42,810 nucleotides of DNA, from the UHGV virus genome UHGV-0330108. One strand, given 5' to 3'. Both the position numbers and the translations under genes were made by a program. Source of the DNA: a virus. Each line of letters opens with the position of its first letter. Position 1 is the stretch's first letter. The notes beneath the pieces were generated by a model. The model saw only the letters and a program-made list of their open reading frames with translations, was not told the DNA's origin and searched no databases. Of this stretch, positions 6,830 to 42,810 are shown piece by piece.

Positions 6830-6852
6830 TGAATAGTACCCTATTATATTGG
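6830..6852 (-). promoter_or_regulatory. promoter/operator cassette TGAATAGTACCCTATTATATTGG (minus-strand TATAAT plus palindrome GAATAG-N4-CTATTA)
   Basis: Perfect TATAAT on the minus strand overlapping a 16-bp palindrome; the identical 23-mer recurs at 16043-16065. Confidence 0.45.
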
Positions 6853-12747: not shown

Positions 12748-13916
12748 ATATGGCTACAACTCCTTTTAAGGGCGCGAATACCGCGCAATTCTATGTGGCG
12801 GAAGTGACCCCGGGCGTAACACCTGCTAACCCGGTCTGGTCGCCGTTGCGTAACACTGGCGGTGTTCCTGCCGTAACCCGCGATGCGCTGACTTCCAACG
12901 AACTGGACGGCAGCCGTGAAACCACATCCATCCGCACTGGTAACAAGCAGGTCAGCGGAGAGTACGCCATTGAGCTTAGCTCCCGTAGCCAGGATGATTT
13001 CCTTGCGGGTGCTATGACTTCTACGTGGCAGGATGGGGTAGAGATTACGGGTGCCGAAATTACGGTCGCCCCAGCAGGTAAAACATTCACCCGCGCTGCC
13101 GGTAGCTTCATTACTGACGGTGTAGAAGTTGGCGACCTGATCGCGTTCACCGACTTAACCGGCGACAACGCAAAACCGTTTATCGTGACCGCGGTCGAGG
13201 CGCTCGTAGTAACAGGCGCAGGTATTCAGCACACGCTGACAGCAGAGACTGTAACCACCGACGCTAAAACTGGCGATAAACTGGAAACTGGTAACGCATG
13301 TAAGACGTTCTCCATCCTGACATGGTTCAAAGGCCAGTGCGGGAACCCTGACGCGTACATGCTGACCAAAGGCGTGGAAATCTCCGGTTTTACTATCGAG
13401 CAGGCCGTAAACGCTATGGTAACCGGCAGCTTCCCGTTCATTGGTCTGAGCCAGGAGATTCTTACCGCTCCGCCGTCCGGCTCTGATTTCTCCCGGGTTA
13501 CGTTCACCGATGAGCCGTTCTCGTCTGTAGATGTGTCTGTGTTCGACGGCTCTGCGCCGTTGCGTTGCGACAGCCTGACCATCACCAACGACAACAGCGC
13601 ATCCGCGCAGTTCGAACTCGGCAACAGTAGCGTCGCGTTCGTGGAACGCGGTCGCGCAGCTAACACCTTCTCCATCTCCGGCAAGCTGTACGACATGGCG
13701 ATGATTCAGAAGTTTATCAACGAACAGCAGGTAGAGATTAACTCTATTCTGGCGGGGGTAAACGGGGCTATGTCTTTCAGCCTGAAACGAGCAGAACTTA
13801 CGGCGGTTACACCAGAGATTGGTGGCCCTGAGTCAATCACTCAGTCTATTGAAGGCCAGGCCACCGGCAACCAGTACCAGTCATCTATCGTAATTCAACG
13901 TATCACCTACGCATAA
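12744..13916 (+). CDS. putative major tail protein
   Basis: 390 aa ORF between connector genes and the chaperone/tape-measure pair; followed by a strong terminator. Confidence 0.65.
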   Translation: MNMATTPFKGANTAQFYVAEVTPGVTPANPVWSPLRNTGGVPAVTRDALTSNELDGSRETTSIRTGNKQVSGEYAIELSSRSQDDFLAGAMTSTWQDGVEITGAEITVAPAGKTFTRAAGSFITDGVEVGDLIAFTDLTGDNAKPFIVTAVEALVVTGAGIQHTLTAETVTTDAKTGDKLETGNACKTFSILTWFKGQCGNPDAYMLTKGVEISGFTIEQAVNAMVTGSFPFIGLSQEILTAPPSGSDFSRVTFTDEPFSSVDVSVFDGSAPLRCDSLTITNDNSASAQFELGNSSVAFVERGRAANTFSISGKLYDMAMIQKFINEQQVEINSILAGVNGAMSFSLKRAELTAVTPEIGGPESITQSIEGQATGNQYQSSIVIQRITYA

Positions 13917-13950
13917 AACTAAGGCCCCAAACGGGGCCTTTTTCTTACTC
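13917..13950. terminator. bidirectional rho-independent terminator cassette
   Basis: AAAACT-AAGGCCCC-AAAC-GGGGCCTT-TTTTCTTACTC; the minus-strand gene's stop codon lies in the T-tract. Near-identical copy at 25239-25277. Confidence 0.65.
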
Positions 13951-16042: not shown

Positions 16043-16065
16043 TGAATAGTACCCTATTATATTGG
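16043..16065 (-). promoter_or_regulatory. promoter/operator cassette TGAATAGTACCCTATTATATTGG, identical to 6830-6852
   Basis: Exact 23-mer repeat with minus-strand TATAAT and the palindrome, directly upstream of the island's first gene. Confidence 0.45.
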
Positions 16066-25238: not shown

Positions 25239-25277
25239 AAAAAAACTAAGGCCCCAAACGGGGCCTTTTCTTTACTC
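25239..25277. terminator. bidirectional rho-independent terminator cassette
   Basis: A9-CT-AAGGCCCC-AAAC-GGGGCCTT-TTCTTTACTC; core identical to 13917-13950; contains the stop codon of a minus-strand small gene. Confidence 0.65.
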
Positions 25278-25409
25278 TTCTGATAACTTCTCAAGTACAA
25301 ACGCCAGTTGCGCATTAGCGGCGTCTCTTTGCTGGCGTAGTCGTAGAACCTCCTCCTCGAGTTCCTTGATACGTTTTTGCAATGCTGGAATCGGGGCTAT
25401 GATGTTCAT
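25272..25409 (-). CDS. small coiled-coil protein (45 aa, MNIIAPIPALQKRIKELEEEVLRLRQQ...)
   Basis: Not in the ORF track; ATG overlaps the helicase stop (ATGA); GAGGTAAG upstream. Confidence 0.4.
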   Translation of the reverse strand: MNIIAPIPALQKRIKELEEEVLRLRQQRDAANAQLAFVLEKLSEE

Positions 25410-26839
25410 TTCTTACCTCGTCTCTTCATGTAATTGAGTAATTCTTCCTGGACCGATTTCTTCTCGTCAGTGCGTGCGGCAACAACCTCGTCCAGCGTGT
25501 CTTTAGCAACGATGCGGTAGAGGAACACCGGGCGCTCGTGTCCCGCCTGTTTCTGGCGCACAGGACCTATGCGCTCCACGACCTGCAAATAGTGCTCAAG
25601 GTTCCAGCCTTGCGAAATAAACGCCAGATGATGGCCGCCGTCCTGTAAATTCAAACCATGGCCGGCTGACGCAGGGTGCACACATAAGATTTCGATTTCT
25701 CCTCGGTTCCACGCTTCCATCTGCTTATTGCCTTTAGCACCTTTGGCGAACGCCTGTGCCTGCGGGAAACGTTTCAGGATGCGTTCCAGTTCGTGCTTGA
25801 ACTGATAGGCGACCAGTAGCGGTGCGCCCTGTAACTCCTCCACAATTGACTCCAGCGCATCCAGTTTCGTATCGTGCACTTTCTCCCAGTCTTTGGTTGC
25901 TTCTCCGTCAGGCCCCGATACATATACGGCACCAGATGCAATCTGCAGACACTTTGACGTCTTCGCCGCAGCGTTAGCCGCTTCAACTTCCCCGCTCTCG
26001 AGTTCCGCAAATAACTTCTCTTCCATATCTACGTACGCCTGACGCGCTTTCTTCGGCAGGTCGATTTCAACCGGTACAATAATCGGCGCTTCGCATCCGA
26101 ACCACTCAGCGGCGTCAATCGTGAGACTAATGTCCTTCATCTTCTGGTGGATTTCATTATCAGCACCAGGGCGGGCATGATACTCACGCGCCATAGCAGA
26201 TTTGCCTTTCTGCACCGAGTTAAACCAGCGGTCGGTGAATGCCGTGTACGACGACCCCAGGCGCTCGCCCGCGTCGATAAACCAGTTCTGGCCCCACAAG
26301 TCCTTGAGGCCGTTTGGTGACGGTGTGCCTGTCAGGTTAATGAAACGTTTAACCTTTCCGAACGCCACTTTACTAAGCGCCTTTGCCCTCTTGCTACCGC
26401 CCGAACGGCTACGGAATGATTTCAGCTTCGTGCTTTCATCGGCGACTATAACCGTAAAAGGCCAGTCGTCTTTGCCGTAGTAGTCAATAAGCCACTCGAT
26501 AACTTCGTAGTTCGTGCATACCACGTTAGCGTCCGACTCCAGCGCCGCGATGCGGCGCTTCTCGGAATCGGTCGCATCTACGACGCGCAGACACGGGAAA
26601 CCCCACTTAGTTTGTTCTGATGGCCATGTACCAGACGCAACTCGCAGCGGGGCGAGGATTAACACGCGGTCATCATCATCATTAAGTTGGCCGTTGCGGA
26701 ACAGTCGGTTAAGCACCCACATAGTTGCGGAACTTTTGCCCGCGCCCATCGAAGCCCAAATATTACAGCGCGGATGTTGCAGCATGAACGAAGTCATGAG
26801 CTTTTGGTACTCTCGACGGATAAATTTAGACATAATCAA
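25406..26839 (-). CDS. SNF2/DEAD-box-like ATP-dependent helicase
   Basis: Walker A SMGAGKSS, DExx box VADEST, NLTGTPSPN, and late motif HPASAGHGLNLQ. Confidence 0.8.
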   Translation of the reverse strand: MIMSKFIRREYQKLMTSFMLQHPRCNIWASMGAGKSSATMWVLNRLFRNGQLNDDDDRVLILAPLRVASGTWPSEQTKWGFPCLRVVDATDSEKRRIAALESDANVVCTNYEVIEWLIDYYGKDDWPFTVIVADESTKLKSFRSRSGGSKRAKALSKVAFGKVKRFINLTGTPSPNGLKDLWGQNWFIDAGERLGSSYTAFTDRWFNSVQKGKSAMAREYHARPGADNEIHQKMKDISLTIDAAEWFGCEAPIIVPVEIDLPKKARQAYVDMEEKLFAELESGEVEAANAAAKTSKCLQIASGAVYVSGPDGEATKDWEKVHDTKLDALESIVEELQGAPLLVAYQFKHELERILKRFPQAQAFAKGAKGNKQMEAWNRGEIEILCVHPASAGHGLNLQDGGHHLAFISQGWNLEHYLQVVERIGPVRQKQAGHERPVFLYRIVAKDTLDEVVAARTDEKKSVQEELLNYMKRRGKK

Positions 26840-27030
26840 CCCTTAATGTAGAGTACCAGCTCTTTACGCCCGAACGCCGTAACGTTACCGGTTACGTCTT
26901 CAATAACCAGTTTACCGTTCGACTCGACGTACACCGTATCAACGGCAACAGGCTGTCGAGTCTTAACGTTGAAAATCATGTCGCCAGGTACGATGTCACG
27001 CGCTGGTTTGCGGTCATATTCGTGTTTCAT
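26836..27030 (-). CDS. hypothetical protein (64 aa)
   Basis: ORF track; initiation region TAAGGAATTGAGAAATG is identical to that of 27045-27338. Confidence 0.5.
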   Translation of the reverse strand: MKHEYDRKPARDIVPGDMIFNVKTRQPVAVDTVYVESNGKLVIEDVTGNVTAFGRKELVLYIKG

Positions 27031-27044
27031 TTCTCAATTCCTTA

Positions 27045-27338
27045 TCAGTACATTAATTCGTTTATTTTCTTATCCAAAGATTCTTTTGAGTAAAAGAAAC
27101 CCATGTGTCTCCCCTTAAATACGAGCCTGTACACATTCTCATCATCTTCAGTAGTAGAAAGGAAAACCCTACAACTAGTTCGGAACTCTCTTACTTTGTC
27201 ACCAAACGCCAATTGCTCCCATTTTACTAAAGGAAATTCTTTTAACATATTGGCGTACAAGTCATTCGCAGTAGCCACTAAGCCCGCATCTAATAGTATG
27301 GCTATTCTCTGCGCGTAATCTAAAAGGACCTTATTCAT
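27045..27338 (-). CDS. hypothetical protein (97 aa), AT-rich cassette
   Basis: ORF track; flanked by 18-bp direct repeats CATTTCTCAATTCCTTAT; visibly more AT-rich than neighbours. Confidence 0.5.
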   Translation of the reverse strand: MNKVLLDYAQRIAILLDAGLVATANDLYANMLKEFPLVKWEQLAFGDKVREFRTSCRVFLSTTEDDENVYRLVFKGRHMGFFYSKESLDKKINELMY

Positions 27339-27341
27339 TTC

Positions 27342-27653
27342 TCAATTCCTTATATTGTTGGTGCAGGGATAACTATAATAGTTCGCTATTAGGTCGTCAA
27401 CCTCTTCTTTTGTTCCTACTACAAAAACATTTGCGTCACGTTTACGAAGCCGTTTGTGTTCCCGCAACTGATGGGCCTCCGGTTCCGTGTTTTCGTCTTT
27501 CTTCACCTCGACGAACCATATAACCCCTCCAGGAAGGGCTACCAGCAGGTCAGGCGCTCCGTTTCTACCCTCATAAGACAGCTTACGAACGAGGCCACCA
27601 ATGGCCTCGAATTGCTCTTTTGCGTATTTCTGTATTTTTCCTTCCGGGGTCAT
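27342..27653 (-). CDS. VRR-NUC domain nuclease
   Basis: ORF track frame 27342-27668; ATG at 27653; motif GAPDLLVALPGGVIWFVEVKKDE fits the VRR-NUC/PD-(D/E)XK signature. Confidence 0.7.
   Translation of the reverse strand: MTPEGKIQKYAKEQFEAIGGLVRKLSYEGRNGAPDLLVALPGGVIWFVEVKKDENTEPEAHQLREHKRLRKRDANVFVVGTKEEVDDLIANYYSYPCTNNIRN
27372..27400 (-). promoter_or_regulatory. sigma70-like promoter (minus: TTGACG-N17-TATAGT) with palindrome TAATAGTTCGCTATTA in the spacer
   Basis: Read on the reverse complement; lies inside the 3' end of the VRR-NUC gene, upstream of 27045-27338. Confidence 0.55.
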
Positions 27654-27884: not shown

Positions 27885-28016
27885 TCATTCCAGCACCCAT
27901 AGATAAATTGCGATGAACATGCCCAATATAGCAACCATCATGCCGTATTGGCCCTCGTGACAGTAGACACCGGCAGCGAATCCCGCCAGTACCGCGATAA
28001 TCAGTTTACTTGGCAT
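27885..28016 (-). CDS. small membrane protein (43 aa)
   Basis: Not in the ORF track; ATG at 28016 just after the DNA polymerase stop, GGAG upstream; hydrophobic. Confidence 0.35.
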   Translation of the reverse strand: MPSKLIIAVLAGFAAGVYCHEGQYGMMVAILGMFIAIYLWVLE

Positions 28017-30207
28017 AACGCTTCATCTCCGCACCTTCCGCGACCAAAGGGAACCCATCTGCCCACTCGGGCAACGCACACATTAATTTTTCCAGTTCAG
28101 CCACCGTGTATTCAGGTGTGTCTGGAGTTTCACACACCAGTTCATCGTGTACCGAAAGTACGATAGGATACCCACCGCCCTCAACATTAATCATCGCATA
28201 TGCGAGTAAATCACGGCACAGCGCCTGAACAATGTTTTCGCAGGCTTTGCCGCCGTGGGTGTACAGGGTAGTCCATTGGCGGGTTAACTGGTTTTCACCC
28301 TGATACTTGATTCGCACATTCGTGTTTACCCGGCCGTCTTCATCTGTCTCCTTTGTCACACTAACGCCGATTCCCGGATAAGAGAGGATGCGGCCCGACG
28401 GCAACTCCATGCATAACCACCAACCAGGAACCTTCCTTCCGGATGAATCAAATTCTACAGTACGCCATATGCGGATAGCCCTTTCGCCATTCCTGCGCAA
28501 GTGCGCTCCCGCCCAAAATTCACGACCTGGGTTACGGACAGCGGCTAAAATTCCGTCTTTAAGGTCACGCCAGAACGCTACTGTTTCCGGGTGTGACTCG
28601 CGCCACATACGCTTGATTGCGTCGCAGGTACGCCACACTTTTTTGTCCAGAATATACGATGGTCTGTCGTCCTTTTCACCTGGATGCGGTGGGCGCTTGG
28701 CTTCCTGGATGCGCGCCCATTCATATCCTCTCGCGGTGGCTGACCAGATGTGGTCGGGGAATGTACCGTCCATTGTTTTTGCCATCTCGATAAGGTCAAG
28801 ACCTAAGTTTTTGGCGAACGTAACGAACGCTCCGACGCCGCCCTCATAGCCGAGGCCAAGCTCGCAAGCCTTGCCTATCTGTCTGATTTCCTTGAAGTTT
28901 TTCTTAATATCGTCGGGGTCCATGCCGAACATCTTACCTGCGGTTACGCAGTAAATATCCAGTCCAGCGCGGAAAGTATCGAGCGCGGTTTCTTCACCAG
29001 CCAGCCACGCAAGCCCCCGGCCTTCAACGTTCGAGTAATCGGCGACGACAAACTTATGCCCTGCTTCCGGAATGATGCAACTACGCACCGTAGATGCTGT
29101 TAGCTTGGCTACATCGAAACGGCGATGAGCACGGCCTTTAAGTAACGCAGAAATGCCTTTATCCAGTTCATCATCGTGATAGTACCCACGCGCCAGGTTC
29201 TGCGGCTGGAAGCCTTTACCGGCCCATCGCAGAGTACGTTTTGCCCCGCCGTACTGCAAGCAACCACGACGGCGGTCGTCCGACGAGCGGCCCAACAGCA
29301 GCGGGTTATATTTCGTTGATGCGGTGGACGCCGCCCCGAGGCGCATTTCGATAATCGTACGCGCGTCGTCAGGTAAATCATCATCTGCCAGCAGGTCGTT
29401 AAGCGTAGACTTCTGCGCATTGTGGATGCGGTGCGCGGGCGCAAGTTCACGCAGAATAGGAAGGAAGTCTTTACCGGTAAGAGAGCCGCCGTATTTGCGT
29501 TGGGCTTCTTCCTGTAGCTGCGCTTTGTGCTTCTCCACGGCTTCAATTGCGGCTTCCGCCAGTGCAACGTCAACCTTAAACCCGCGGTCATTGATTACCT
29601 GGTCCAGTTCCAGCACACGGTCTTCGAACTCAGAGTTACCCCAACGCGGCAGTTTATGGAAGACTTCACGCATCGCAGTGATGTCGCTCACGGCGTACTT
29701 GATGAACAGCGCCCACTCGTCTGGGTGCGTTTCTGCTGTGTAACGGCGGATTTTGTAGTTCTTCGGCGTAGGTTTAGAAAAACGCTGAATCAGCGCCTTG
29801 CCGCGTTTATCTTTCGCGTTGTCTGCAGATACGCCCAGCACTTCGCACAACGCATCGAGAGAACCCGGAAGCGCGTGACGAAACGCCCAAATCATCGTAT
29901 CAATGGTGTTGCTTACCGGAATATCAAAGCCCCAGCAATGCTTCATGATGAGCCTGTCGAAAAGTCCACCGTTGTGCCATACCATCTTAATACGGCTGTT
30001 CGGCTTCACCAGACGGCGTAACGCGCGATGCAGGTCCCCTGGCATGTCGCTGCCGTCGGTGCAATCCCATACCTGTACAGGCTCGTCGTCAAAAGCATAG
30101 GTGCAGATAAGCACTTCTGTAGTCTGGTGTTCGGCGTAAGCGTAGGAACCGACTTTCTTTAAATCGGCTTCGGAGAATGTTTCAAAGTCTAAGAACAGGT
30201 AACTCAT
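28006..30207 (-). CDS. DNA polymerase, family A, with 3'-5' exonuclease domain
   Basis: Exo I motif LFLDFETFS; motif A VADYSNVEGRGLAWLAGE; motif B RQIGKACELGLGYEGG; motif C LSVHDELVCE. Confidence 0.9.
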   Translation of the reverse strand: MSYLFLDFETFSEADLKKVGSYAYAEHQTTEVLICTYAFDDEPVQVWDCTDGSDMPGDLHRALRRLVKPNSRIKMVWHNGGLFDRLIMKHCWGFDIPVSNTIDTMIWAFRHALPGSLDALCEVLGVSADNAKDKRGKALIQRFSKPTPKNYKIRRYTAETHPDEWALFIKYAVSDITAMREVFHKLPRWGNSEFEDRVLELDQVINDRGFKVDVALAEAAIEAVEKHKAQLQEEAQRKYGGSLTGKDFLPILRELAPAHRIHNAQKSTLNDLLADDDLPDDARTIIEMRLGAASTASTKYNPLLLGRSSDDRRRGCLQYGGAKRTLRWAGKGFQPQNLARGYYHDDELDKGISALLKGRAHRRFDVAKLTASTVRSCIIPEAGHKFVVADYSNVEGRGLAWLAGEETALDTFRAGLDIYCVTAGKMFGMDPDDIKKNFKEIRQIGKACELGLGYEGGVGAFVTFAKNLGLDLIEMAKTMDGTFPDHIWSATARGYEWARIQEAKRPPHPGEKDDRPSYILDKKVWRTCDAIKRMWRESHPETVAFWRDLKDGILAAVRNPGREFWAGAHLRRNGERAIRIWRTVEFDSSGRKVPGWWLCMELPSGRILSYPGIGVSVTKETDEDGRVNTNVRIKYQGENQLTRQWTTLYTHGGKACENIVQALCRDLLAYAMINVEGGGYPIVLSVHDELVCETPDTPEYTVAELEKLMCALPEWADGFPLVAEGAEMKRYAK

Positions 30208-30266: not shown

Positions 30267-30896
30267 TTAACGACGGCGGCGTTCGCGGCGCGGTGCTCCA
30301 TCTTCTTCGTCGTCTTCCAGGTCGTCAGTGCTCGCTACTACACTGGAGCCGCCGAAGCGTTTACCTTCGCCCATATACTTGATGCCGAGGATGGTAGCGC
30401 ACAGGTTTTTCCAATCTTTGTGCCACCATAATTCTACAGATACGTTTGCGACACATCCGCTATACACCTGCTCGCCTTCTATTTCCTTTCCATCGATGTT
30501 GAAATCAGGCTCGGTTTGTTTTTCACCTTTAGCTGATGTCATAATTACCGGCTGGCGGTTGTTAGTAGCACGGAAATACAGACCTTCTTCAAAATCCTCA
30601 ATCGGATTGTCACGCATTGCCAGGTCGCGTACGCAGCATTTATCCGCATGGTGGTCTACGCCGTAGTTAGCCTTCATCCATTTCTCGGCGGCAGCTGCCC
30701 CGATTGCCTCTGTTACAACTTCCATAGCGGTGTCGTAAAGTGCATCGATTTGAGGATGATCTGGCTGCATAAGAACAGTAACCTGGTATTTACCCTTAAT
30801 CAGTTTACCGGTTTTCTTATCCTCAGAGTCCGCAGCACGTTCGAATACGTTAACCCAGGCAGTGTTTACTTTACGCAGATTCAGTTTAATACCCAT
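30267..30896 (-). CDS. putative ssDNA-binding protein (T7 gp2.5-like architecture)
   Basis: 209 aa with an acidic tail DDLEDDEEDG and replication-module context; assignment is tentative. Confidence 0.4.
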   Translation of the reverse strand: MGIKLNLRKVNTAWVNVFERAADSEDKKTGKLIKGKYQVTVLMQPDHPQIDALYDTAMEVVTEAIGAAAAEKWMKANYGVDHHADKCCVRDLAMRDNPIEDFEEGLYFRATNNRQPVIMTSAKGEKQTEPDFNIDGKEIEGEQVYSGCVANVSVELWWHKDWKNLCATILGIKYMGEGKRFGGSSVVASTDDLEDDEEDGAPRRERRRR

Positions 30897-30949: not shown

Positions 30950-30978
30950 ACTATAATAGTTAACTATTCAGGTGTCAA
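30950..30978 (-). promoter_or_regulatory. sigma70-like promoter (minus: TTGACA-N17-TATAGT) with perfect palindrome GAATAGTTAACTATTA in the spacer
   Basis: Consensus -35, near-consensus -10, 17-bp spacer; ~45 nt upstream of the ATG at 30896. Confidence 0.6.
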
Positions 30979-31211
30979 CCCTTCCAGCCAGTTATTTTCT
31001 CGACTAGCCAGATATACTTGTTTGGCCAGTTCAAATTGCGTACCCACTCAACTTCTTTGGTGTACACCAACTCCTCTAGTTCTATTTTCCTGCACTTAAA
31101 GGCGGTATACACGAAAAACGGAAGAAGCATTATAACTAGCGGCAGTATCAGAGCGTGATAAGTTAAAAACGCCACAAAACCGCCAATTACTCTGAACATT
31201 TTACGAATCAT
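30975..31211 (-). CDS. small membrane protein (78 aa from MIRKMF...)
   Basis: ORF track frame 30975-31241; ATG at 31211 overlaps the exonuclease stop, with GAGGAGGA upstream; hydrophobic core. Confidence 0.45.
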   Translation of the reverse strand: MIRKMFRVIGGFVAFLTYHALILPLVIMLLPFFVYTAFKCRKIELEELVYTKEVEWVRNLNWPNKYIWLVEKITGWKG

Positions 31212-32473
31212 TCCAAATCCTCCTCTGTTACCTGATTCCACTCAGGCCGTTTGTCGTCTGCCGTTGCAACACATGGCGCGCCTGGTTTACGGGTAATAAA
31301 CGGCTCAAGCGCTGCCATCTCATCCGCCGAAAGAACTTTTGCTGCCTCCGTAGGGGACATCAATACCTCTTTTTTTAGAATGTCGCCGTGTGACACTTCA
31401 ATCGCATCGGCATCTTTCCACGCACGATTACCGGGACGGCCTTCAACCAGTTTGTACCCCGGCACTTTCTTGCCGGAATGCAAAGCAGCAGCCATCGCTT
31501 TCTCAACCTTGCCGATGTGCTGGCGCAACAACGGCAACTTCTCATACTCAGCTACGAGTTGCTCTGGCGTAAGTTCCAGCACAAAGTCGTCTTCCGGTTC
31601 TTCTGCCAGTACCGCGTTAACGGTTTTTGTACGCGCAGCGCATTGTTCTGAGAAACGACACCACTGACAACCATCGACCGAAGGCTTAAAGTCTGACGCT
31701 TTAAGGTTCTTCTTGCCGCGGGAATAGGCGTCAAGAGCCAACAGTGCACGTTTCTGTGCAAACTTAGCAAACAGTTCAAGGCCTTTAACCGAGATGTCCC
31801 ACTCCGACGCGCCACCGGCGCACGGCTGGAAGATGACCAGACGAACGGTTGTTATGTTATAACGTCTCTTGAGTCTGCGATAAACACCGAGAGCGTAAAG
31901 CATAAGCTGCTTGTTTTCTTTCGCTTCGACACGATGCCGTCCTGTTTTAAGGTCACCGATAATGAGCATGTGCTCGTCTGTGTTAGCCAGTTCCTGTACG
32001 GCAACAAGGTCGGCGGTTCCGAATGTCTCAACGCCTTCGTACCCTGGATGTAATACCTCAGTAAGATTGACACGCATTTCCAGCTTGACGTAAGTAGCAA
32101 CGTCGATAATCGGTTTGCAGTAGTCGGTGTACTTTCGCACCTGCTCAATCATGTCAGCCGTAATTAGTACAGCGCCTTTCATATGGCTGATTAGCGCCTT
32201 AATCTGGCCTTTACCCTCATCCAGCACGTAAGCGCCGACTTCACGCTCTAACGGCAACGCGGTTCCGCGAATATAGGCGTTTAGATGTACCTCGGCTATG
32301 GTGTGCATGGCCGTGCCTAATACGGCGGCTTTACCGGACGTGTTAGGGATGTCTTTTTCACAGGCCAGCGATGCACTGCACGCCAGCCACTTTTTAGCGC
32401 CTGACGGCGACAGTAAGGCGTGTACGTCGTTATTGCCGCCGCGTTCCTTTAAAATCATACCCTGTTCTCCCAC
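31208..32473 (-). CDS. PD-(D/E)XK exonuclease (RecB/Cas4-like, with Cys cluster)
   Basis: Motifs GTADLV...IGDLKTG...KQLMLYALG; N-terminal LSPSGAKKWLACSASLAC and C-terminal CQWCRFSEQC cysteines. Confidence 0.75.
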   Translation of the reverse strand: MGEQGMILKERGGNNDVHALLSPSGAKKWLACSASLACEKDIPNTSGKAAVLGTAMHTIAEVHLNAYIRGTALPLEREVGAYVLDEGKGQIKALISHMKGAVLITADMIEQVRKYTDYCKPIIDVATYVKLEMRVNLTEVLHPGYEGVETFGTADLVAVQELANTDEHMLIIGDLKTGRHRVEAKENKQLMLYALGVYRRLKRRYNITTVRLVIFQPCAGGASEWDISVKGLELFAKFAQKRALLALDAYSRGKKNLKASDFKPSVDGCQWCRFSEQCAARTKTVNAVLAEEPEDDFVLELTPEQLVAEYEKLPLLRQHIGKVEKAMAAALHSGKKVPGYKLVEGRPGNRAWKDADAIEVSHGDILKKEVLMSPTEAAKVLSADEMAALEPFITRKPGAPCVATADDKRPEWNQVTEEDLE

Positions 32474-32997: not shown

Positions 32998-33453
32998 TTA
33001 TTCTTCTTCGAAATACTTGTTCTTGATTGCCGTCAGGCGTTCCAGATATTCAACCAGGTCTTCGTCTTTAATCGCGGCAATCTTCATCTTCTTACCGGTG
33101 AACTCTTCCAGCAGTTCATCGGAATCATCGCACGCGGCATCGCTTGGGCCTTCGTTAATCGCATCGTCGATAGCCTGAATCTGGTCACGCAGAGACTGAT
33201 AATCGACCTCTTCTTCCGGCTCTGGCGTTGGCTCCTCTACTTTAGCTTTACGCGGCTTGCGTTTTGGCTTCTCTTCTTCTTCTGCCGGTTTAGTGTCAAC
33301 GAGGTCTTCACCTTCGACCGGGATTTCTTTTGTTGCAACATTAGGCGTGATTGTTGCAGTTTCAGCAACGACAACCTGTTTTGCGCTGTTCGCGGCAATC
33401 AGTTCGTGCGCAACTACGAAACGTTCCAGTAATACTAAGAATTTCTCTAACAT
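32998..33453 (-). CDS. hypothetical acidic protein (151 aa)
   Basis: ORF track; GAGGAGAG RBS; first gene downstream of the promoter at 33486-33515. Confidence 0.5.
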   Translation of the reverse strand: MLEKFLVLLERFVVAHELIAANSAKQVVVAETATITPNVATKEIPVEGEDLVDTKPAEEEEKPKRKPRKAKVEEPTPEPEEEVDYQSLRDQIQAIDDAINEGPSDAACDDSDELLEEFTGKKMKIAAIKDEDLVEYLERLTAIKNKYFEEE

Positions 33454-33485: not shown

Positions 33486-33515
33486 ACTATAATAGCGAAC
33501 TATTCATGTTGTCAA
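33486..33515 (-). promoter_or_regulatory. sigma70-like promoter (minus: TTGACA-N18-TATAGT) with palindrome GAATAGTTCGCTATTA
   Basis: Same architecture as 27372-27400 and 30950-30978; divergent from the XRE regulator gene. Confidence 0.55.
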
Positions 33516-33579: not shown

Positions 33580-33795
33580 ATGCAACCATCTGAACTAGGC
33601 ATCCGTGTAGAACAACGCCGCAAAGAACTTGGCATCTCCCAGCGCCGTCTGGCTGTCATGGCTGGCGTTTCCCAGGGCGCAATTAACCAGCTGGCACTTG
33701 GAGTAACTCAGGACGTCCGCCCGGCAACGCTGTTTAAACTGGCGGAAGTGCTTGAAGTAGACGCCAAGTGGCTGGCGTTCGGTGAAGGGGCTTAA
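33580..33795 (+). CDS. XRE-family HTH transcriptional regulator (Cro/CI-like, 71 aa)
   Basis: HTH segment ISQRRLAVMAGVSQGAINQLALG; TAAGGAG RBS; lone plus-strand gene with its own promoter and terminator. Confidence 0.75.
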   Translation: MQPSELGIRVEQRRKELGISQRRLAVMAGVSQGAINQLALGVTQDVRPATLFKLAEVLEVDAKWLAFGEGA

Positions 33796-33810
33796 CGCCC
33801 CTTTATTTTT
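33786..33810 (+). terminator. rho-independent terminator after the XRE regulator gene
   Basis: AGGGGC-TTAAC-GCCCCT followed by TTTATTTTT; the stop codon sits in the loop. Confidence 0.6.
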
Positions 33811-33812
33811 AC

Positions 33813-36083
33813 CTATTCCAAATCCTCCTCCGTCACCACCAGCATTTCATTCGGTTCGTATATTGTCTTCGGAATCTTGTTATCGTTTATACCCCACGGC
33901 AACCGGTATTGCTTAGGGATCGGCCTGTTGTTGTTATCCAGCCCAGAGACTATAACCCCAGCCTCGTGCATCTCTTCCAGTTTCTTTCGAAGGTCGTTAT
34001 TAGCGTTAATCGGTACGCCGTAACTATCTTCTTTCGCCGCTTTGACGATAGCAGACATAGAAAATCCTCGCTTGTCGTCGCCCTGCTCCTGCAATTTACC
34101 CAATGCGTAGATAACCGTAGCCTCTTTGGTATCCAGTTTCTCGAACTGACCTACCTTTTCTTTAACAGCCGCTTTACCTTCTTTAGTTAACCCTTCTTCC
34201 CGCTCTTTCTCCTCGTCAGTCTTAAACGGCTCAAAGCCCCACGGCATCAACACAAGCGCCTTATGCGGCTCAGGCAGGTCGAGGTTTACGATTATGCCGT
34301 ATTCCTCTGTACTACCCAGGAACTCAACCGCGCGGTATTCTTTCGGCGGCGGGGCTTCACGGAACTGTACCGACTCCAGCACCATGCCAACCGTCTTCTG
34401 CTGCGGCCCGTGCTTAAATTTTGAGTGGTATACGTTTATCTGTCGGTCGGTAGCGCGTTCGATTGTCAGTTCCACATCGACACCCGCATACAGAGCGCCG
34501 CTGCCACGGGCTTTCTTTCCGCCTTTCGGTGTGTGGTGAACGACGCCCACCGCGGCTTTAGTCGCGTCACGCACTTCTTTCAGGATGGCGATAACTTTAC
34601 CCATGCCGATTGCCGTTGATGAGCTGTTCTCGTCGAACTTATCAATAGTCAGTGCCAGGGTCTGGTTGAGGGTGTCAAACGCGACCATGCCGATTGGCTC
34701 GTCGCCAGCAGTTTCGCGCATTAACTTAATCAGGCTCTTCAGTTTGCCGACTTCACCCATGTCTATGACATGTATATAATCTTTACCTTCCGCGCCGTAT
34801 TTAGCCGCGAGCGCATCAATACGTGTACGTGTGGCTGCACCACCTTCACCGTCGATATAGAAATGGTGGCAACGCTGGGTGTCCGCCCCTGCGAAGCGAT
34901 AGCCTGCGGCGCTGAGGTACATCATCCCCAGCGTATAGAATGATTTGTACGTGCCTGATTCCCCGACGATATCCCAGATACAATCTGACGGCATGTACCC
35001 TTCTACGACGAAATCAGCCTTTACAGGTTCCGGTAGCTCGTCCTCCTCGGAGTCTTCGTCATCTTCCAGGTCGTCCAGGCTACACGAAACAGATTCACGC
35101 GCGCCCCATCCGATTGCCTCAGCAACTTCACTGAACGGCAGACCAGTCGCATCGCACGCATACTTCCACACCTCTTTCGGTGACATGCCCTCGGTTGCCG
35201 TAATGTCGGTGTCGTGGATCATGGTTACGTTAGGCGCTTCGTACCCTTCGCGCGGGAAGCACAGCAGGAAGTCATCCGGGCGCGGCGTAGGGTCGCTGTA
35301 GTTCTCTGCGTGCTCCGGTGTAGCGGGCATCTTAAGGCCGCGCGGCGTCATGACGCCACCATACTCAAACGCCAGTGCTTCGAACGCGTCCGTAAACGCG
35401 GTGCGCAGTTCTTCCGGTATCTGGTAATCCGATGCGCTGCTCACCTCGTAATCCGGTACGCCTTCCAGTAACTCTTCCGGGTCAATCAGGTCGTTGCGAC
35501 GCGACCAGATAACAGTAGCACCGACCGGCGGCAGATACATCGGCTGCGACAGAGTGAACCCGCTGCGGTCCGCACCCATGCCTTTGAAGAAGTGCTCAAG
35601 CAACCCATGACGAACGCGAATGATGTCACCACCTTCAACCGGGCGGGCCAGCGGCATGACGACACGAAAGCGAGGGGACTCGTCGGTATGCGATGCCGTG
35701 GTGTAGATGCACATCGCCCGGCGGCTGCGCTTAACCAGGCGCACAGCTTCCTGATACTCTTCCGGCGTTGCACTGTCGAAGTCCAGATACGCCAGCGACG
35801 ATTTGCTTACAGACGCATCGCAGCGATAGAAGAAACCTTTACGCGCTTCCTTAAAGTCACCGGTTTCCGGGTCTTTTACGGTGCTGTGTGTGGAGTCACA
35901 CGCGCCGGTGATGTAGCCCGGCGCGGTCTTCGGGTTAATCCCGTCACGAACGGCATCAAGCGGCTGGATTAACTCTTTCAGGTCGTCCAGTGTTGCCGTG
36001 TGTGTGGTTCTGACGTTTATATCCTTTTTCTCTGCCCGCGCGTTGCGACGAGACCACGAGTAGGATAAAATCACATCGGACAT
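33813..36083 (-). CDS. primase-helicase-like replication protein (RecA-fold ATPase with N-terminal primase-like region)
   Basis: Walker A-like VGESGTYKS, HFYIDGEGG and VVHHTPKGGKKARGSGALYAGVDVE; 756 aa. Confidence 0.7.
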   Translation of the reverse strand: MSDVILSYSWSRRNARAEKKDINVRTTHTATLDDLKELIQPLDAVRDGINPKTAPGYITGACDSTHSTVKDPETGDFKEARKGFFYRCDASVSKSSLAYLDFDSATPEEYQEAVRLVKRSRRAMCIYTTASHTDESPRFRVVMPLARPVEGGDIIRVRHGLLEHFFKGMGADRSGFTLSQPMYLPPVGATVIWSRRNDLIDPEELLEGVPDYEVSSASDYQIPEELRTAFTDAFEALAFEYGGVMTPRGLKMPATPEHAENYSDPTPRPDDFLLCFPREGYEAPNVTMIHDTDITATEGMSPKEVWKYACDATGLPFSEVAEAIGWGARESVSCSLDDLEDDEDSEEDELPEPVKADFVVEGYMPSDCIWDIVGESGTYKSFYTLGMMYLSAAGYRFAGADTQRCHHFYIDGEGGAATRTRIDALAAKYGAEGKDYIHVIDMGEVGKLKSLIKLMRETAGDEPIGMVAFDTLNQTLALTIDKFDENSSSTAIGMGKVIAILKEVRDATKAAVGVVHHTPKGGKKARGSGALYAGVDVELTIERATDRQINVYHSKFKHGPQQKTVGMVLESVQFREAPPPKEYRAVEFLGSTEEYGIIVNLDLPEPHKALVLMPWGFEPFKTDEEKEREEGLTKEGKAAVKEKVGQFEKLDTKEATVIYALGKLQEQGDDKRGFSMSAIVKAAKEDSYGVPINANNDLRKKLEEMHEAGVIVSGLDNNNRPIPKQYRLPWGINDNKIPKTIYEPNEMLVVTEEDLE

Positions 36084-36141: not shown

Positions 36142-36375
36142 TTATTCCAGGTCTTCTAAAGTAGCGGTCATTCCGCGAACTTCAGCAACGGCGCTATATT
36201 TCCCGCCAACGTTTTTCACGACACCGGATTTAACCAGTACACGTAACGACGCTTCAATAATGGCTGAACTATAGTACTTAAAATAACTACGGCGCAAGTC
36301 GATAACGCTGCACGACCCTTTTTTACGTGTTAACGAAACGACCGCCGTAAATACGCGTGACTGGAACTCGGTCAT
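36142..36375 (-). CDS. hypothetical protein (77 aa) with C-terminal LEDLE
   Basis: ORF track; coupled to the upstream HTH gene. Confidence 0.45.
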   Translation of the reverse strand: MTEFQSRVFTAVVSLTRKKGSCSVIDLRRSYFKYYSSAIIEASLRVLVKSGVVKNVGGKYSAVAEVRGMTATLEDLE

Positions 36376-36542
36376 TTCACGTTCTCCTTAATCCACGCTT
36401 CCACTTTCTCCGGGTCGAACGTACCCGGCTGACGGCGACCCATAATACGAATACAGCAATCCGGGAACTTCCCACTCTTTAACCAGTTATTCAGCGTACG
36501 GCGGGTAACCCCGATACGCTCCGCTACCTCATTCTGTGTCAT
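36372..36542 (-). CDS. small HTH DNA-binding protein (56 aa from MTQNEV...)
   Basis: ORF track frame 36372-36575 starts at TTG; ATG at 36542 has GAGGGT upstream; HTH-like EVAERIGVTRRTLNNWLKSGKFP. Confidence 0.55.
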   Translation of the reverse strand: MTQNEVAERIGVTRRTLNNWLKSGKFPDCCIRIMGRRQPGTFDPEKVEAWIKENVK

Positions 36543-36574
36543 TCTCAAACCCTCATTATCAGTTAACGAAACCA

Positions 36575-36603
36575 AGTATACATTGCGAATAATGGGAAAT
36601 CAA
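36575..36603 (-). promoter_or_regulatory. putative promoter of the minus-strand replication operon (TTGATT-N17-TATACT)
   Basis: Read on the reverse complement ~35 nt upstream of the ATG at 36542; coordinates approximate. Confidence 0.35.
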
Positions 36604-42344: not shown

Positions 42345-42494
42345 ATGAAAATCACAGATATCGAAGCATTCGAAGACGCACAACTGATGGCACGCATCGC
42401 CGTCAATAACATGAGCAGCAATATCCCGGCTGACGCGTTCTGGTCCGCTGCGATGCAGGCGCTGAAAGCAGCTTACGCAGGAGAGAAGAAATGA
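42345..42494 (+). CDS. hypothetical small protein (49 aa)
   Basis: Not in the ORF track; weak RBS; stop overlaps the next ATG (ATGA); ends AGEKK like its neighbour. Confidence 0.35.
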   Translation: MKITDIEAFEDAQLMARIAVNNMSSNIPADAFWSAAMQALKAAYAGEKK

Positions 42495-42700
42495 GCGACG
42501 TTATCGTTGGCGGCATCTATAGGAGTAATTACTCGTGGGGCGATGCTGGTGAAGTTAGTTTCATTGTAACTGCGGTTGGGTTGGACCATATACTTATCGC
42601 CGACTACCCATTGATAAAATTCAATGAATCCTATTTGGAATATTGTGTTGGTAGAAAGGAGTTCGAGGCTAAATTTAAGTTTGCAGGAGAGAAGAAATGA
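42491..42700 (+). CDS. hypothetical protein (69 aa)
   Basis: ORF track; preceded by the junction 23-mer GCAGGAGAGAAGAAATGAGCGA. Confidence 0.5.
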   Translation: MSDVIVGGIYRSNYSWGDAGEVSFIVTAVGLDHILIADYPLIKFNESYLEYCVGRKEFEAKFKFAGEKK

Positions 42701-42810
42701 GCGAACAAGGTCCAGTAAGCCAACCGTTACGAGTAGGCCGTAAAGTCAGTCACACCCCGTTCCCGTCACGCGAGGAACTGATGAAACGTAACAGTTTCCC
42801 GGGGCCGGAC
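42697..42810 (+). CDS. 5' part of a CDS truncated by the window end (hypothetical protein)
   Basis: ATG at 42697 inside the second copy of the junction 23-mer; frame is open to the last base of the window. Confidence 0.4.
   Translation, partial: MSEQGPVSQPLRVGRKVSHTPFPSREELMKRNSFPGPD

What the first reader, a model, noticed from the sequence alone, without database searches (positions are those of the whole stretch)
31208..31231. Shared C-terminal (E/L)EDLE tail on three replication-arm proteins; the coding sequence doubles as an RBS
The primase-helicase ends ...VVTEEDLE, the exonuclease ends ...QVTEEDLE and the 77-aa protein at 36142-36375 ends ...TATLEDLE. The first two share near-identical DNA (about 33813-33836 vs 31208-31231), while the third uses different codons for the same residues, indicating selection on the peptide. 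In the exonuclease the GAGGAGGATTTGGAATGA stretch also supplies the RBS and ATG of the downstream gene. By analogy with T7 acidic C-terminal tails, this could be a common docking tag for a replisome partner.
Basis: partly seen in the sequence, partly recalled or inferred. Interest (0 to 1): 0.6.

Follow-up and report, generated by a model that had tools for sequence, protein, structure and literature searches.

The report
Shared SSB-like tail on replication proteins
Three replication proteins of this Kagunavirus-like phage end in the same short acidic peptide (-EDLE), a copy of a conserved motif in the phage's own single-strand DNA-binding protein. It is most likely a docking tag that brings them all to one replisome partner, as in phage T7 but with a different motif and more client proteins.

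Summary
The primase-helicase, the DUF2800 (Cas4-like) exonuclease and a 77-aa winged-helix protein are the only 3 of 787 six-frame ORFs that end in [DE][DE]L[DE].

The tetrapeptide [DE]DL[DE] occurs five times in the whole six-frame translation (about 0.7 expected). One is in the primase-helicase linker. The other sits just after the OB fold of the gp2.5/Enc34-type SSB.

Selection acts on the peptide:
- D-L is invariant in exonuclease homologues down to 32% identity and in SSB homologues down to 44%.
- The tail survives in primase-helicases only 28-35% identical.
- The exonuclease keeps (S/T)EEDLE while switching GAG GAG to GAA GAA wherever no downstream gene overlaps. This also confirms the RBS double use (17/17 against 1/16).

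Across phage lineages, the tails of SSB, exonuclease and often primase change together: DDL, DDF...DLV, ...DMI, AWDDEDEV. Phages of the same host use different tails. This argues for one co-evolving, phage-encoded receptor.

Which receptor is unproven. The candidates are the SSB's own groove (Enc34 crystal contacts) and the family-A polymerase (T7 precedent).

I rate it a new variant of a known kind, of moderate interest.

The parts
31208..31231 (-). Last 7 codons plus stop of the DUF2800 exonuclease (V T E E D L E *). It contains the SD GAGGAGG (31225-31219) and the ATG (31211-31209) of the next gene, overlapping the TGA stop.
31208..32458 (-). DUF2800 / PD-(D/E)XK (Cas4-like) exonuclease, 416 aa. 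The Pfam profile ends at residue 405, so the tail lies outside the fold.
   Evidence: (PF10926 E 5.7e-68, residues 13-405)
30975..31211 (-). 78-aa hydrophobic protein, translationally coupled to the exonuclease. It occupies a variable slot between exonuclease and SSB.
33813..33836 (-). Last 7 codons plus stop of the primase-helicase (V T E E D L E *, TAG stop, no overlapping ATG here).
33813..36083 (-). Replicative primase-helicase, 756 aa.
   Evidence: AAA_25; phrog_3228 E 2.9e-300
35055..35081 (-). Internal copy of the motif in the primase-helicase inter-domain linker (S L D D L E D D E). It matches the SSB motif at 24/27 nt and is conserved in all Kagunavirus alleles.
36142..36165 (-). Last 7 codons plus stop of p77 (A T L E D L E *), using different codons.
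36142..36375 (-). p77, a small winged-helix protein with a flexible tail. It is restricted to Kagunavirus.
   Evidence: (phrog_5169)
30312..30329 (-). SSB motif T D D L E D, located just after the OB fold. D192 and L193 are invariant among homologues of 44-94% identity.
30267..30896 (-). gp2.5/Enc34-type SSB (DUF2815), 209 aa. It both carries the motif and is a candidate receptor.
   Evidence: PF10991; phrog_112
28006..30207 (-). Family-A DNA polymerase. It never carries the tail and is a candidate receptor by T7 analogy.
33785..33804 (+). Terminator hairpin between the convergent HTH gene (33580-33795) and the primase-helicase stop. It explains why no gene overlaps the primase-helicase stop in this window.
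30950..30978 (-). Promoter-like TTGACA-N17-TATAGT in front of the SSB gene. In relatives that lack the 78-aa gene it follows the exonuclease stop directly.

Best explanation
The tail (S/T)-[DE]-[DE]-D-L-E is a short, disordered linear docking motif. It copies the conserved 'DDL' motif that lies immediately after the OB fold of the phage's own gp2.5/Enc34-type SSB.

Carriers. The primase-helicase carries it twice, in its linker and at its C-terminus. The DUF2800 exonuclease and small accessory proteins carry it once. The accessory proteins are p77 here and an unrelated 60-aa protein in a relative. By displaying the SSB's motif, these proteins can occupy the site that the SSB tail occupies on a phage-encoded receptor.

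Receptor. It is most likely the concave groove of a neighbouring SSB molecule on SSB-coated ssDNA, and/or a basic patch on the family-A polymerase.

Consequence. The enzymes that create ssDNA (helicase, 5'-3' resecting nuclease) would stay physically coupled to SSB and polymerase, allowing hand-off at forks and at recombination ends.

Second function. Where the next gene starts at an overlapping ATGA, the same codons (GAG GAG GAT TTG GA ATG A) also serve as Shine-Dalgarno sequence and start codon for that gene.

Shown:
- the motif and its positions;
- purifying selection on the peptide;
- identity with the SSB motif;
- co-variation between lineages;
- codon choice that tracks the presence of an overlapping start.

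Inferred:
- that the motif binds anything;
- the identity of the receptor;
- the hand-off role.
For: Position and chance:
- Only 3 of 787 ORFs end in the motif.
- All 5 [DE]DL[DE] occurrences in the six-frame translation lie in SSB, primase-helicase (twice), exonuclease and p77.
- In 38 Kagunavirus loci, 82 of 10,015 ORFs end in DLE: 36 primase-helicases, 30 exonucleases, 15 p77-like proteins and 1 unrelated 60-aa protein in the exonuclease-SSB slot.

Peptide-level selection:
- Exonuclease D414 and L415 are invariant in alignment A1 down to 32% identity.
- Representatives at 43-59% identity end T[DE][DE]DL plus 1-3 residues.
- SSB D192 and L193 are invariant in 32 sequences of 44-94% identity, while the downstream extension is hypervariable.
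- The peptide is kept with GAA GAA in place of GAG GAG.

Conservation across genera:
- Jerseyvirus f18SE: primase-helicase TTEGDLE, exonuclease VTEDDLEA, SSB VDDLEDD.
- SE1: SEEEDLEN, with a primase-helicase 28% identical, and ATDNDLAN.
- Dhillonvirus Teewinot: ATDDDLKD and TDEDLSNE.

Co-variation in other lineages:
- YeP5: exonuclease ...ENDFENVDETESAESLI, SSB ...EDDFDEITEGADAESLI.
- Chi-like iEPS5: primase PFDDEDEV, exonuclease AWDDEDDDEV, SSB AWDEDEDWEDEV.
- Staphylococcus R1988: exonuclease EDDFDKL, SSB EDDFDEL...DFL, primase-helicase ESLEDLI.
- In 80 environmental loci the last residues of exonuclease and SSB change together: LV/LV, LA/LA, MI/MI, IL against VL or IL.
- Permutation test on 52 unique pairs: score 4.71 against 2.34 +/- 0.68, reached in 1 of 10,000 shuffles. 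Identity of the last two residues was reached in 0 of 10,000.
- In some of these loci other proteins carry the same tail: methyltransferases, small proteins I read by eye as terminase-small-subunit-like, and proteins I read by eye as clamp-like.

Phage-encoded receptor: phages of the same hosts (Salmonella, E. coli) use different tails. PolA never has the tail.

Disorder:
- The Pfam DUF2800 profile ends at residue 405 of 416.
- The p77 tail has pLDDT 61-70 next to a confident winged-helix core.
- In the SSB model, residues 190-196 are a small island of pLDDT at or above 50 with a short helix, between segments below 50.

Precedents:
- In Enc34 ORF6 crystals the end of the traceable tail inserts into the groove of a neighbouring SSB. 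By my count from the paper's construct boundaries and residue tally, this segment ends ...SDAYD188, but I did not check it against the coordinates. Similar contacts are reported for two other DUF2815 structures and for T7 gp2.5 (PMC5686142).
- T7 gp4 and gp2.5 tails bind, and compete for, basic patches on gp5/trx (bioRxiv 10.64898/2026.05.20.726333).
- The ICP8 tail FNF motif docks into the neighbouring monomer (PMC12409425).
Against: - No binding evidence of any kind was obtained.
- The SSB model gives only a weak pLDDT island, which does not show docking.
- In this phage the SSB motif is internal, not terminal. The hydrophobic residue is Leu followed by Glu, not a terminal aromatic as in T7.
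- p77 is a narrow family, with all 31 hits at least 86% identical. In many relatives the proteins that occupy its slot lack the tail. The tag is therefore dispensable on that protein.
- The -DLE end of the 91-aa distant p77 homologue shares its last codons and downstream DNA with p77. It may be a mosaic junction rather than independent conservation.
- In several distant lineages the primase lacks the tail: YeP5, GB2A, Javan497, BT16.
- Related loci are not phylogenetically independent. The permutation P value overstates the number of independent events. I count about four or five distinct correlated tail switches.
Confidence: 0.7

Rival explanations
1. The conservation acts on the DNA or mRNA, and the peptide is a by-product. 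The sequence GAGGAGGATTTGGAATGA would be a conserved gene junction. It would supply the RBS and start codon for the next gene, or act as a mosaic recombination boundary.
For: - The SD plus ATGA junction is real in the exonuclease.
- The same junction precedes several different downstream genes in relatives.
- 12 of 13 primase-helicase alleles with an overlapping ATG carry GGAGG.
- The 91-aa p77 variant shares the last codons and downstream DNA with p77.
Against: - 15 of 16 exonuclease alleles with no overlapping gene keep (S/T)EEDLE with GAA GAA codons and no GGAGG.
- The window's primase-helicase has a TAG stop, no ATG, and a terminator downstream.
- p77 uses different codons.
- SE1 and Teewinot keep the peptide with unrelated DNA.
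- The motif is also internal in the SSB and in the primase-helicase linker, where no gene starts.
Confidence: 0.05
2. Each tail is an intramolecular, DNA-mimicking autoinhibitor. It would fold back on its own protein's DNA-binding surface, as acidic tails of SSBs do. The similarity would reflect only a shared need for acidic residues plus one hydrophobic residue, not a shared partner.
For: - The T7 gp2.5 tail competes with ssDNA for the OB cleft (Marintcheva 2008, cited in PMC5686142 and PMC10359462).
- Enc34 ORF6 without its C-terminus gains dsDNA binding.
- All carriers are DNA-binding proteins.
Against: - Non-charged residues co-vary between proteins of unrelated folds within a genome: LV, LA, MI, IL, AESLI, AW...EV.
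- The motif position and the Thr/Ser before it are conserved.
- In some loci the same tail sits on methyltransferases and on proteins I read as terminase-small-subunit-like.
- A purely compositional requirement would not keep D-L invariant.
Confidence: 0.12
3. The tail docks on a host factor, or is a degron for a host protease. Candidate host factors are proteins that normally read the host SSB C-terminus, or the beta-clamp.
For: - Acidic tips with a hydrophobic residue resemble the bacterial SSB-Ct (DDDIPF; my own background knowledge).
- Phage proteins often hijack host hubs.
Against: - Phages of the same hosts use different tails. In Salmonella and E. coli, Jerseyvirus and Kagunavirus use T(E/D)DLE, Dhillonvirus uses DDDLKD and Chivirus uses WDDEDEV.
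- Tails co-vary with the phage's own SSB, not with the host.
- The motif does not fit DDDIPF or the clamp-binding consensus QL[SD]LF (my own knowledge).
Confidence: 0.08
4. Concerted evolution explains the similarity. The tails would be homogenised by intragenomic recombination or gene conversion between short repeats, without a shared function.
For: - There is a 16-nt exact identity between the two tails.
- The SSB motif and the primase-helicase linker share 24/27 nt.
- The phage encodes its own annealing and exonuclease machinery.
Against: - The repeats are very short.
- p77 and the tails of SE1, Teewinot, iEPS5 and YeP5 share the peptide but not the codons.
- Homogenisation without selection would not keep the motif at invariant positions across homologues of 28-59% identity.
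Confidence: 0.05

Closest known systems
Phage T7 acidic C-terminal tails of gp4 (helicase-primase) and gp2.5 (SSB), which bind the basic patches of gp5/thioredoxin polymerase
   Same: - A helicase-primase and a gp2.5-fold SSB display the same kind of acidic, disordered tail with a key hydrophobic residue.
- The tails compete for one site.
- The SSB tail also contacts the SSB itself.
   Different: - The motif is T-E-E-D-L-E, with Leu at position -2, rather than a terminal Phe.
- In this phage the SSB copy is internal and is followed by a charged extension.
- The tag is also on a Cas4-like nuclease, on the helicase linker and on small accessory proteins.
- The receptor is not identified, and no T7-like thioredoxin-binding domain was shown here.
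Enc34 ORF6 / DUF2815 SSB tail-in-groove contacts (PDB 5ODJ, 4KLK, 4JG2; Cernooka et al. 2017)
   Same: - It is the same SSB family (PF10991).
- An acidic-aromatic motif lies at nearly the same distance after the OB fold. By my residue count, Enc34 Y187 is F176+11 and the window's L193 is F181+12.
- In the crystals this part of the tail inserts into the groove of a neighbouring SSB.
   Different: - That work described only SSB-SSB contacts seen in crystals.
- It did not describe other replication proteins carrying the same motif.
- Its motif is aromatic (DAYD), where this phage has DDLE.
HSV-1 ICP8 C-terminal FNF motif and the UL12-ICP8 exonuclease/annealase pair
   Same: - A gp2.5-related SSB/annealase uses a hydrophobic motif in a disordered tail to dock on the next monomer.
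- It works together with a PD-(D/E)XK nuclease.
   Different: - UL12 is not known to mimic the ICP8 tail.
- It is a eukaryotic virus, with a much larger protein and no acidic DL motif.
The duf2800-gp2.5-polA phage replication/recombination module (PMC8093625)
   Same: The gene content and order match: DUF2800 nuclease, DUF2815 SSB and PolA, with a primase-helicase and an SNF2 helicase nearby.
   Different: The published description concerns gene context only. I found no mention of shared or co-varying C-terminal tails in the papers searched.
Hub-and-peptide systems: beta-clamp-binding motifs, PIP boxes, bacterial SSB-Ct
   Same: A short linear motif organises many DNA enzymes around one hub.
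   Different: - The sequence motif is different.
- In the SSB-Ct system one tail meets many receptors. Here many proteins carry one tail.
- The hub would be phage-encoded and lineage-specific.

Membership tests
T7-type acidic C-terminal docking tails | The SSB has the gp2.5 (T7-type OB) fold. | tested here: met
   PF10991 Enc34_ssDNA-bd E 1.3e-11. phrog_112 'Gp2.5-like' E 2e-32. The AF2 model is confident and beta-rich. The related iEPS5 SSB matches PDB 5ODJ at E 1.4e-117.
T7-type acidic C-terminal docking tails | An acidic, disordered tail lies at the extreme C-terminus of the replicative helicase-primase. | tested here: met
   The protein ends ...EPNEMLVVTEEDLE*, with net charge -6 over the last 15 residues. 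The tail is conserved in 36 of 36 Kagunavirus homologues and in three other genera.
T7-type acidic C-terminal docking tails | The SSB carries the same motif at its own extreme C-terminus. | tested here: not met
   In this phage the SSB motif TDDLED is internal (aa 190-195 of 209) and is followed by DEEDGAPRRERRRR. The feature is met in other lineages: YeP5, iEPS5, Staphylococcus R1988 and the environmental loci.
T7-type acidic C-terminal docking tails | A C-terminal aromatic residue (Phe) acts as the key anchor. | tested here: not met
   Here the anchor is Leu at position -2 with Glu last. Aromatic residues (F, W, Y) occupy the equivalent position in other lineages.
T7-type acidic C-terminal docking tails | The tail binds a basic patch on the phage DNA polymerase and competes with the SSB tail. 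| not testable with these tools
   No complex prediction or binding assay was available. The only related result is that PolA never carries the tail.
Translationally coupled overlapping gene junction (SD inside the upstream coding sequence, ATGA overlap) | An SD-like sequence lies 5-10 nt upstream of a start codon that overlaps the upstream stop. | tested here: met
   For the exonuclease: GAGGAGG at 31225-31219, a 7-nt spacer, ATG at 31211-31209 and TGA at 31210-31208. It is not met for the window's primase-helicase, which has a TAG stop and no ATG.
Translationally coupled overlapping gene junction (SD inside the upstream coding sequence, ATGA overlap) | The downstream ORF is real, and codon choice tracks its presence. 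| tested here: met
   The 78-aa ORF is annotated in phage EM1 with the same overlap. GGAGG is present in 17 of 17 alleles with an overlap and in 1 of 16 without.
Exonuclease-annealase (SynExo/EATR) pair | A PD-(D/E)XK 5'-3' exonuclease gene lies next to an SSB/annealase gene. | tested here: met
   The DUF2800/PDDEXK_1 nuclease at 31208-32458 lies next to the DUF2815 SSB at 30267-30896. The module is described in PMC8093625.
Exonuclease-annealase (SynExo/EATR) pair | There is a specific physical complex between the two proteins. | not testable with these tools
   It is inferred only from the shared, co-varying tails.
Bacterial SSB-Ct interactome | A D-D-D-I-P-F type tip lies on a host-type tetrameric SSB. 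| tested here: not met
   The SSB is of gp2.5 type, not E. coli type. The motif is DDLE, and the protein ends in RRERRRR.

The most novel reading that the evidence does not exclude
The widespread duf2800-gp2.5-polA phage replication module may run on a private 'SSB-tail code'. Each lineage would have its own short tail motif, displayed by the SSB and copied by the nuclease, by the primase-helicase and in some lineages by other proteins: methyltransferases, and proteins I read by eye as terminase-small-subunit-like and clamp-like. All would dock on one co-evolving, phage-encoded receptor groove. This would be a phage-encoded equivalent of the PIP-box/clamp hub. It could also insulate the replisomes of co-infecting phages from one another.
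Probability: 0.3. Interest if true: 0.7.

Novelty: new variant of a known kind. Interest (0 to 1): 0.55.

Why it matters
The duf2800-gp2.5-polA module occurs in many phage records: 1,472 of about 50,700 matched the exonuclease. These span Proteobacteria, Firmicutes and Bacteroidetes. How its proteins assemble is unknown.

A shared tail that co-varies between lineages gives a concrete, cheap handle for experiments:
- Peptides and tail swaps can identify the hub.
- The tail predicts which accessory proteins of unknown function, such as p77, belong to the replisome.
- It suggests how nuclease and helicase hand ssDNA to the SSB.
- It could explain the specificity of exonuclease/annealase pairs that matters for recombineering.

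It is also a clean natural example of one sequence under two constraints, a protein motif and a ribosome-binding site. In relatives the codons relax exactly where the second constraint is absent.

Tried and rejected
- The search for homologous proteins on the exonuclease returned only near-identical sequences, at least 94% identical. That was useless for testing conservation, so I used the 50%-cluster representatives instead.
- The search for related loci with the broad alignment A1 failed because no stretch was conserved enough. It worked with the tighter alignment A2.
- I tested whether p77 is a paralogue of the primase-helicase C-terminal region. BLASTP found no similarity.
- The fold search with the p77 model gave only generic winged-helix matches: MotA N-terminal domain, LexA DNA-binding domain, RPA32C, all with E of 6e-3 or worse. 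No specific function follows. The 'uvsX-like' label in some GenBank records is not supported.
- The AF2 model of the full SSB was meant to show whether the motif docks in cis. The output gives only pLDDT, with a weak island at residues 190-196, so it is not decisive.
- The 16-nt DNA repeat is not significant as a repeat.
- Host SSB-Ct and clamp-binding motifs were considered and rejected on sequence and on host-independence.
- The T7 paper by Hamdan et al. 2005 (PMC556000) is not held. The T7 facts are cited from papers that are held.
- I considered identifying the receptor from columns of PolA or SSB that co-vary with tail class. I did not attempt it, because the tail classes are probably monophyletic and any lineage-specific substitution would correlate.
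Full report
**What the window is**

The window is about 90% identical at the nucleotide level to E. coli siphophages of the genus Kagunavirus (Guernseyvirinae). On the minus strand it carries a replication arm:
- SNF2-type helicase, 25406-26833.
- Family-A DNA polymerase, 28006-30207.
- gp2.5/Enc34-type SSB (DUF2815), 30267-30896.
- A 78-aa hydrophobic protein, 30975-31211.
- DUF2800 PD-(D/E)XK (Cas4-like) exonuclease, 31208-32458.
- Three small ORFs.
- A convergent HTH gene on the plus strand, 33580-33795.
- Primase-helicase, 33813-36083.
- The 77-aa protein p77, 36142-36375.
- An HTH protein, 36372-36575.

This is the known duf2800-gp2.5-polA module (PMC8093625).

**Checking the observation**

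The three proteins end VVTEEDLE, QVTEEDLE and TATLEDLE. They are the only 3 of 787 six-frame ORFs that end in [DE][DE]L[DE].

The two TEEDLE tails share 20 of 24 nt and a 16-nt exact core. p77 uses other codons. The 16-nt repeat is not remarkable in itself, because it is the shortest of seven exact repeats of at least 16 nt. The in-frame position at three gene ends is what is non-random.

- TDDLED in the SSB, right after the OB fold.
- SLDDLEDDE in the primase-helicase linker.

These two share 24 of 27 nt with each other. Together with the three tails they are the only five [DE]DL[DE] tetrapeptides in the entire six-frame translation, against about 0.7 expected.

**Peptide or DNA?**

In 38 Kagunavirus loci from IMG/VR, 82 of 10,015 ORFs end in DLE. 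They are 36 primase-helicases, 30 exonucleases, 15 p77-like proteins and one unrelated 60-aa protein in the exonuclease-SSB slot.

The exonuclease exists as two junction alleles:
- Where a downstream gene starts at an overlapping ATGA, the tail reads ACA GAG GAG GAT TTR GAA TGA. Several different genes use this same junction.
- Where the exonuclease is followed directly by the SSB promoter, the tail reads AGT GAA GAA GAT TTR GAA TAA.

The peptide is kept and the Shine-Dalgarno sequence disappears. GGAGG is present in 17 of 17 alleles with an overlap and in 1 of 16 without. The 78-aa gene is annotated independently in phage EM1 with the same overlap.

In the window the primase-helicase ends TAG, in front of a terminator. 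Its GGAGG has no start codon to serve. In some relatives the same junction does carry an overlapping gene.

**Conservation in homologues**

- Among representatives of 50%-identity clusters, exonucleases 43-59% identical end ...T[DE][DE]DL plus 1-3 residues.
- In a 23-sequence alignment down to 32% identity, D414 and L415 are invariant. So are the nuclease catalytic residues and the four Fe-S cysteines.
- The Pfam DUF2800 profile ends at residue 405 of 416, so the tail lies outside the fold.
- Primase-helicases of other genera keep the tail: Jerseyvirus TTEGDLE, SE1 SEEEDLEN at 28% identity, Dhillonvirus ATDDDLKD at 35% identity.
- The linker copy is conserved in all Kagunavirus primase-helicase alleles.
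- In 32 SSB homologues of 44-94% identity, D192 and L193 are invariant, while everything downstream is hypervariable.

**The key result: the tails are copies of the SSB's own motif and change with it**

In each lineage examined, the exonuclease tail resembles the SSB motif that follows the OB fold. Often the primase tail does too.

| Lineage | Exonuclease | SSB | Primase or primase-helicase |
|---|---|---|---|
| YeP5 | ENDFENVDETESAESLI | EDDFDEITEGADAESLI | no tail |
| Chi-like iEPS5 | AWDDEDDDEV | AWDEDEDWEDEV | PFDDEDEV |
| Staphylococcus R1988 | EDDFDKL | EDDFDELDTDDEDFL | ESLEDLI |

In iEPS5 the SNF2 helicase also ends GVWDDEE.

In 80 environmental loci the exonuclease and the SSB share a bipartite motif: [DE][DE]F[DE]D[VLI] plus an extreme C-terminal xDLV. 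The last residues switch together: LV/LV, LA/LA, MI/MI, IL against VL or IL.

A permutation test on 52 unique pairs gave a score of 4.71 against 2.34 +/- 0.68, reached in 1 of 10,000 shuffles. Identity of the last two residues was never reached in 10,000 shuffles. The loci are related to one another, so this reflects roughly four or five independent correlated switches rather than 52 events.

In some of these loci other proteins carry the SSB's tail:
- three DNA methyltransferases ending FADMI, where the SSB ends TADMI;
- small proteins that I read by eye, from their sequences, as resembling terminase small subunits;
- proteins of about 220 aa that I read by eye as DnaN/clamp-like.

I did not run a family search on these proteins.

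The family-A polymerase always ends ...YRYRK/RYAK, and the SNF2 helicase usually ends in a basic stretch. Phages of one host use different tails.

**Mechanism**

I read the tail as a short linear docking motif that mimics the SSB tail. Two receptors are plausible and are not mutually exclusive.

(a) The groove of a neighbouring SSB.
- In Enc34 ORF6 crystals the end of the traceable tail inserts into the concave sheet of the next molecule, burying 842 square angstroms.
- Similar contacts are reported for two other DUF2815 structures and for T7 gp2.5 (PMC5686142).
- By my residue count from the paper's construct boundaries, this segment ends ...SDAYD188. I did not check it against the coordinates.
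- By the same count, the Enc34 tyrosine lies 11 residues after the conserved FG, and the window's L193 lies 12 after it.
- ICP8, a gp2.5 relative, uses an FNF motif in its tail in the same way (PMC12409425).

(b) The polymerase. T7 gp4 and gp2.5 tails bind, and compete for, basic patches on gp5/trx.

My split is roughly 45% SSB groove, 30% polymerase and 25% both or something else.

The consequence, which is inferred, would be that the helicase and the resecting nuclease stay coupled to SSB and polymerase as they generate ssDNA.

The structure predictions add little:
- p77 is a confident generic winged-helix domain (pLDDT 87.8) with a flexible tail.
- In the SSB model the motif forms a small island of pLDDT at or above 50, with a short helix, between disordered segments.

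**Rivals**

- A purely DNA-level cause is contradicted by the GAA GAA alleles, by p77's codons and by the internal copies.
- An intramolecular DNA-mimic tail does not explain why non-charged residues co-vary across unrelated folds.
- A host partner or degron does not fit host-independent, phage-specific tails.
- Gene conversion does not fit the peptide identity seen without codon identity.

**Weaknesses**

- Nothing here shows binding.
- p77 is a narrow family and its slot often holds proteins without the tail.
- The -DLE of the 91-aa p77 variant may be a mosaic junction.
- Several distant primases lack the tail.

**Novelty**

Acidic docking tails are textbook for T7, and the gene module is known. 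In the literature available to me I found no description of the tail being shared and co-varying among SSB, DUF2800 nuclease, primase-helicase and accessory proteins. I therefore rate it a new variant of a known kind, of moderate interest.

Noticed in passing
window 35055-35081 (-) and 30312-30338 (-): The primase-helicase linker (SLDDLEDDE) and the SSB motif (STDDLEDDE) share 24 of 27 nt. The linker copy is conserved in all Kagunavirus primase-helicase alleles, including those with a different N-terminal domain.
   Followed up: partly
window 32998-33453 (-): p151 (phrog_3127, function unknown) is very acidic, with a low-complexity centre, and ends ...KYFEEE. Homologues in Jerseyvirus, SE1 and Dhillonvirus end KYFEEE, KYYEIEE and TYFELED. 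This is a second, different conserved acidic-aromatic C-terminal tail in the same arm.
   Followed up: no
window 30267-30311 (-); P0302-P0353: After the DDL motif the SSB carries a hypervariable extension of alternating acidic and basic runs, here DEEDGAPRRERRRR. It reaches about 70 residues in relatives and usually ends in a basic PRRRR-type stretch.
   Followed up: partly
window 25406-25430 (-); L042, L049-L128: The SNF2-type helicase ends in a conserved basic stretch, ...YMKRRGKK here and ...AMKRRxK in distant phages. In Chi-like iEPS5 it ends instead with the acidic GVWDDEE tail.
   Followed up: no
window 13915-13942 and 25242-25269: A 28-nt exact repeat, AAAACTAAGGCCCCAAACGGGGCCTTTT. It is a symmetric terminator-type hairpin present at two places.
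   Followed up: no
window 6830-6852 and 16043-16065; also 30950-30978 (-) and 33486-33515 (-): A 23-nt exact repeat, TGAATAGTACCCTATTATATTGG, resembles the spacer and -10 region of the strong TTGACA-N17/18-TATAGT promoters found in front of the SSB gene and p151. It looks like a phage promoter family.
   Followed up: no
window 42477-42498 and 42683-42704; 27026-27045 and 27334-27353: Exact repeats of 22 and 20 nt that span an RBS plus start codon of small genes (GCAGGAGAGAAGAAATGAGCGA; on the minus strand ATAAGGAATTGAGAAATGAA). These are repeated gene-start junctions.
   Followed up: no
L001-L037, slot between the HTH gene and the primase-helicase (window 36142-36375): This slot holds at least six unrelated small proteins in different Kagunavirus genomes: p77; a 91-aa distant homologue ending ISHDLE or ISRDLE; a 96-aa protein; a 70-aa protein; another 77-aa protein; and a 149-aa protein. 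Only the p77 types carry the tail.
   Followed up: partly
L021 15229-15412 (+): An unrelated 60-aa protein in the exonuclease-SSB slot also ends ...KKEDLE and starts at the same overlapping ATGA junction. It is an apparently independent acquisition of the tag.
   Followed up: partly
L082 10360-13489 and L101 4392-6685: Tandem DNA methyltransferase genes, two of which are near-duplicates, end ...FADMI. This matches the rare ...TADMI tail of that phage's SSB and the ...DMI tail of its exonuclease.
   Followed up: partly
L003-L037, primase-helicase: Primase-helicase alleles differ strongly in the N-terminal (primase) half. Some loci match only residues 315-756, at 46-79% identity. The last 14 residues stay almost identical.
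   Followed up: no
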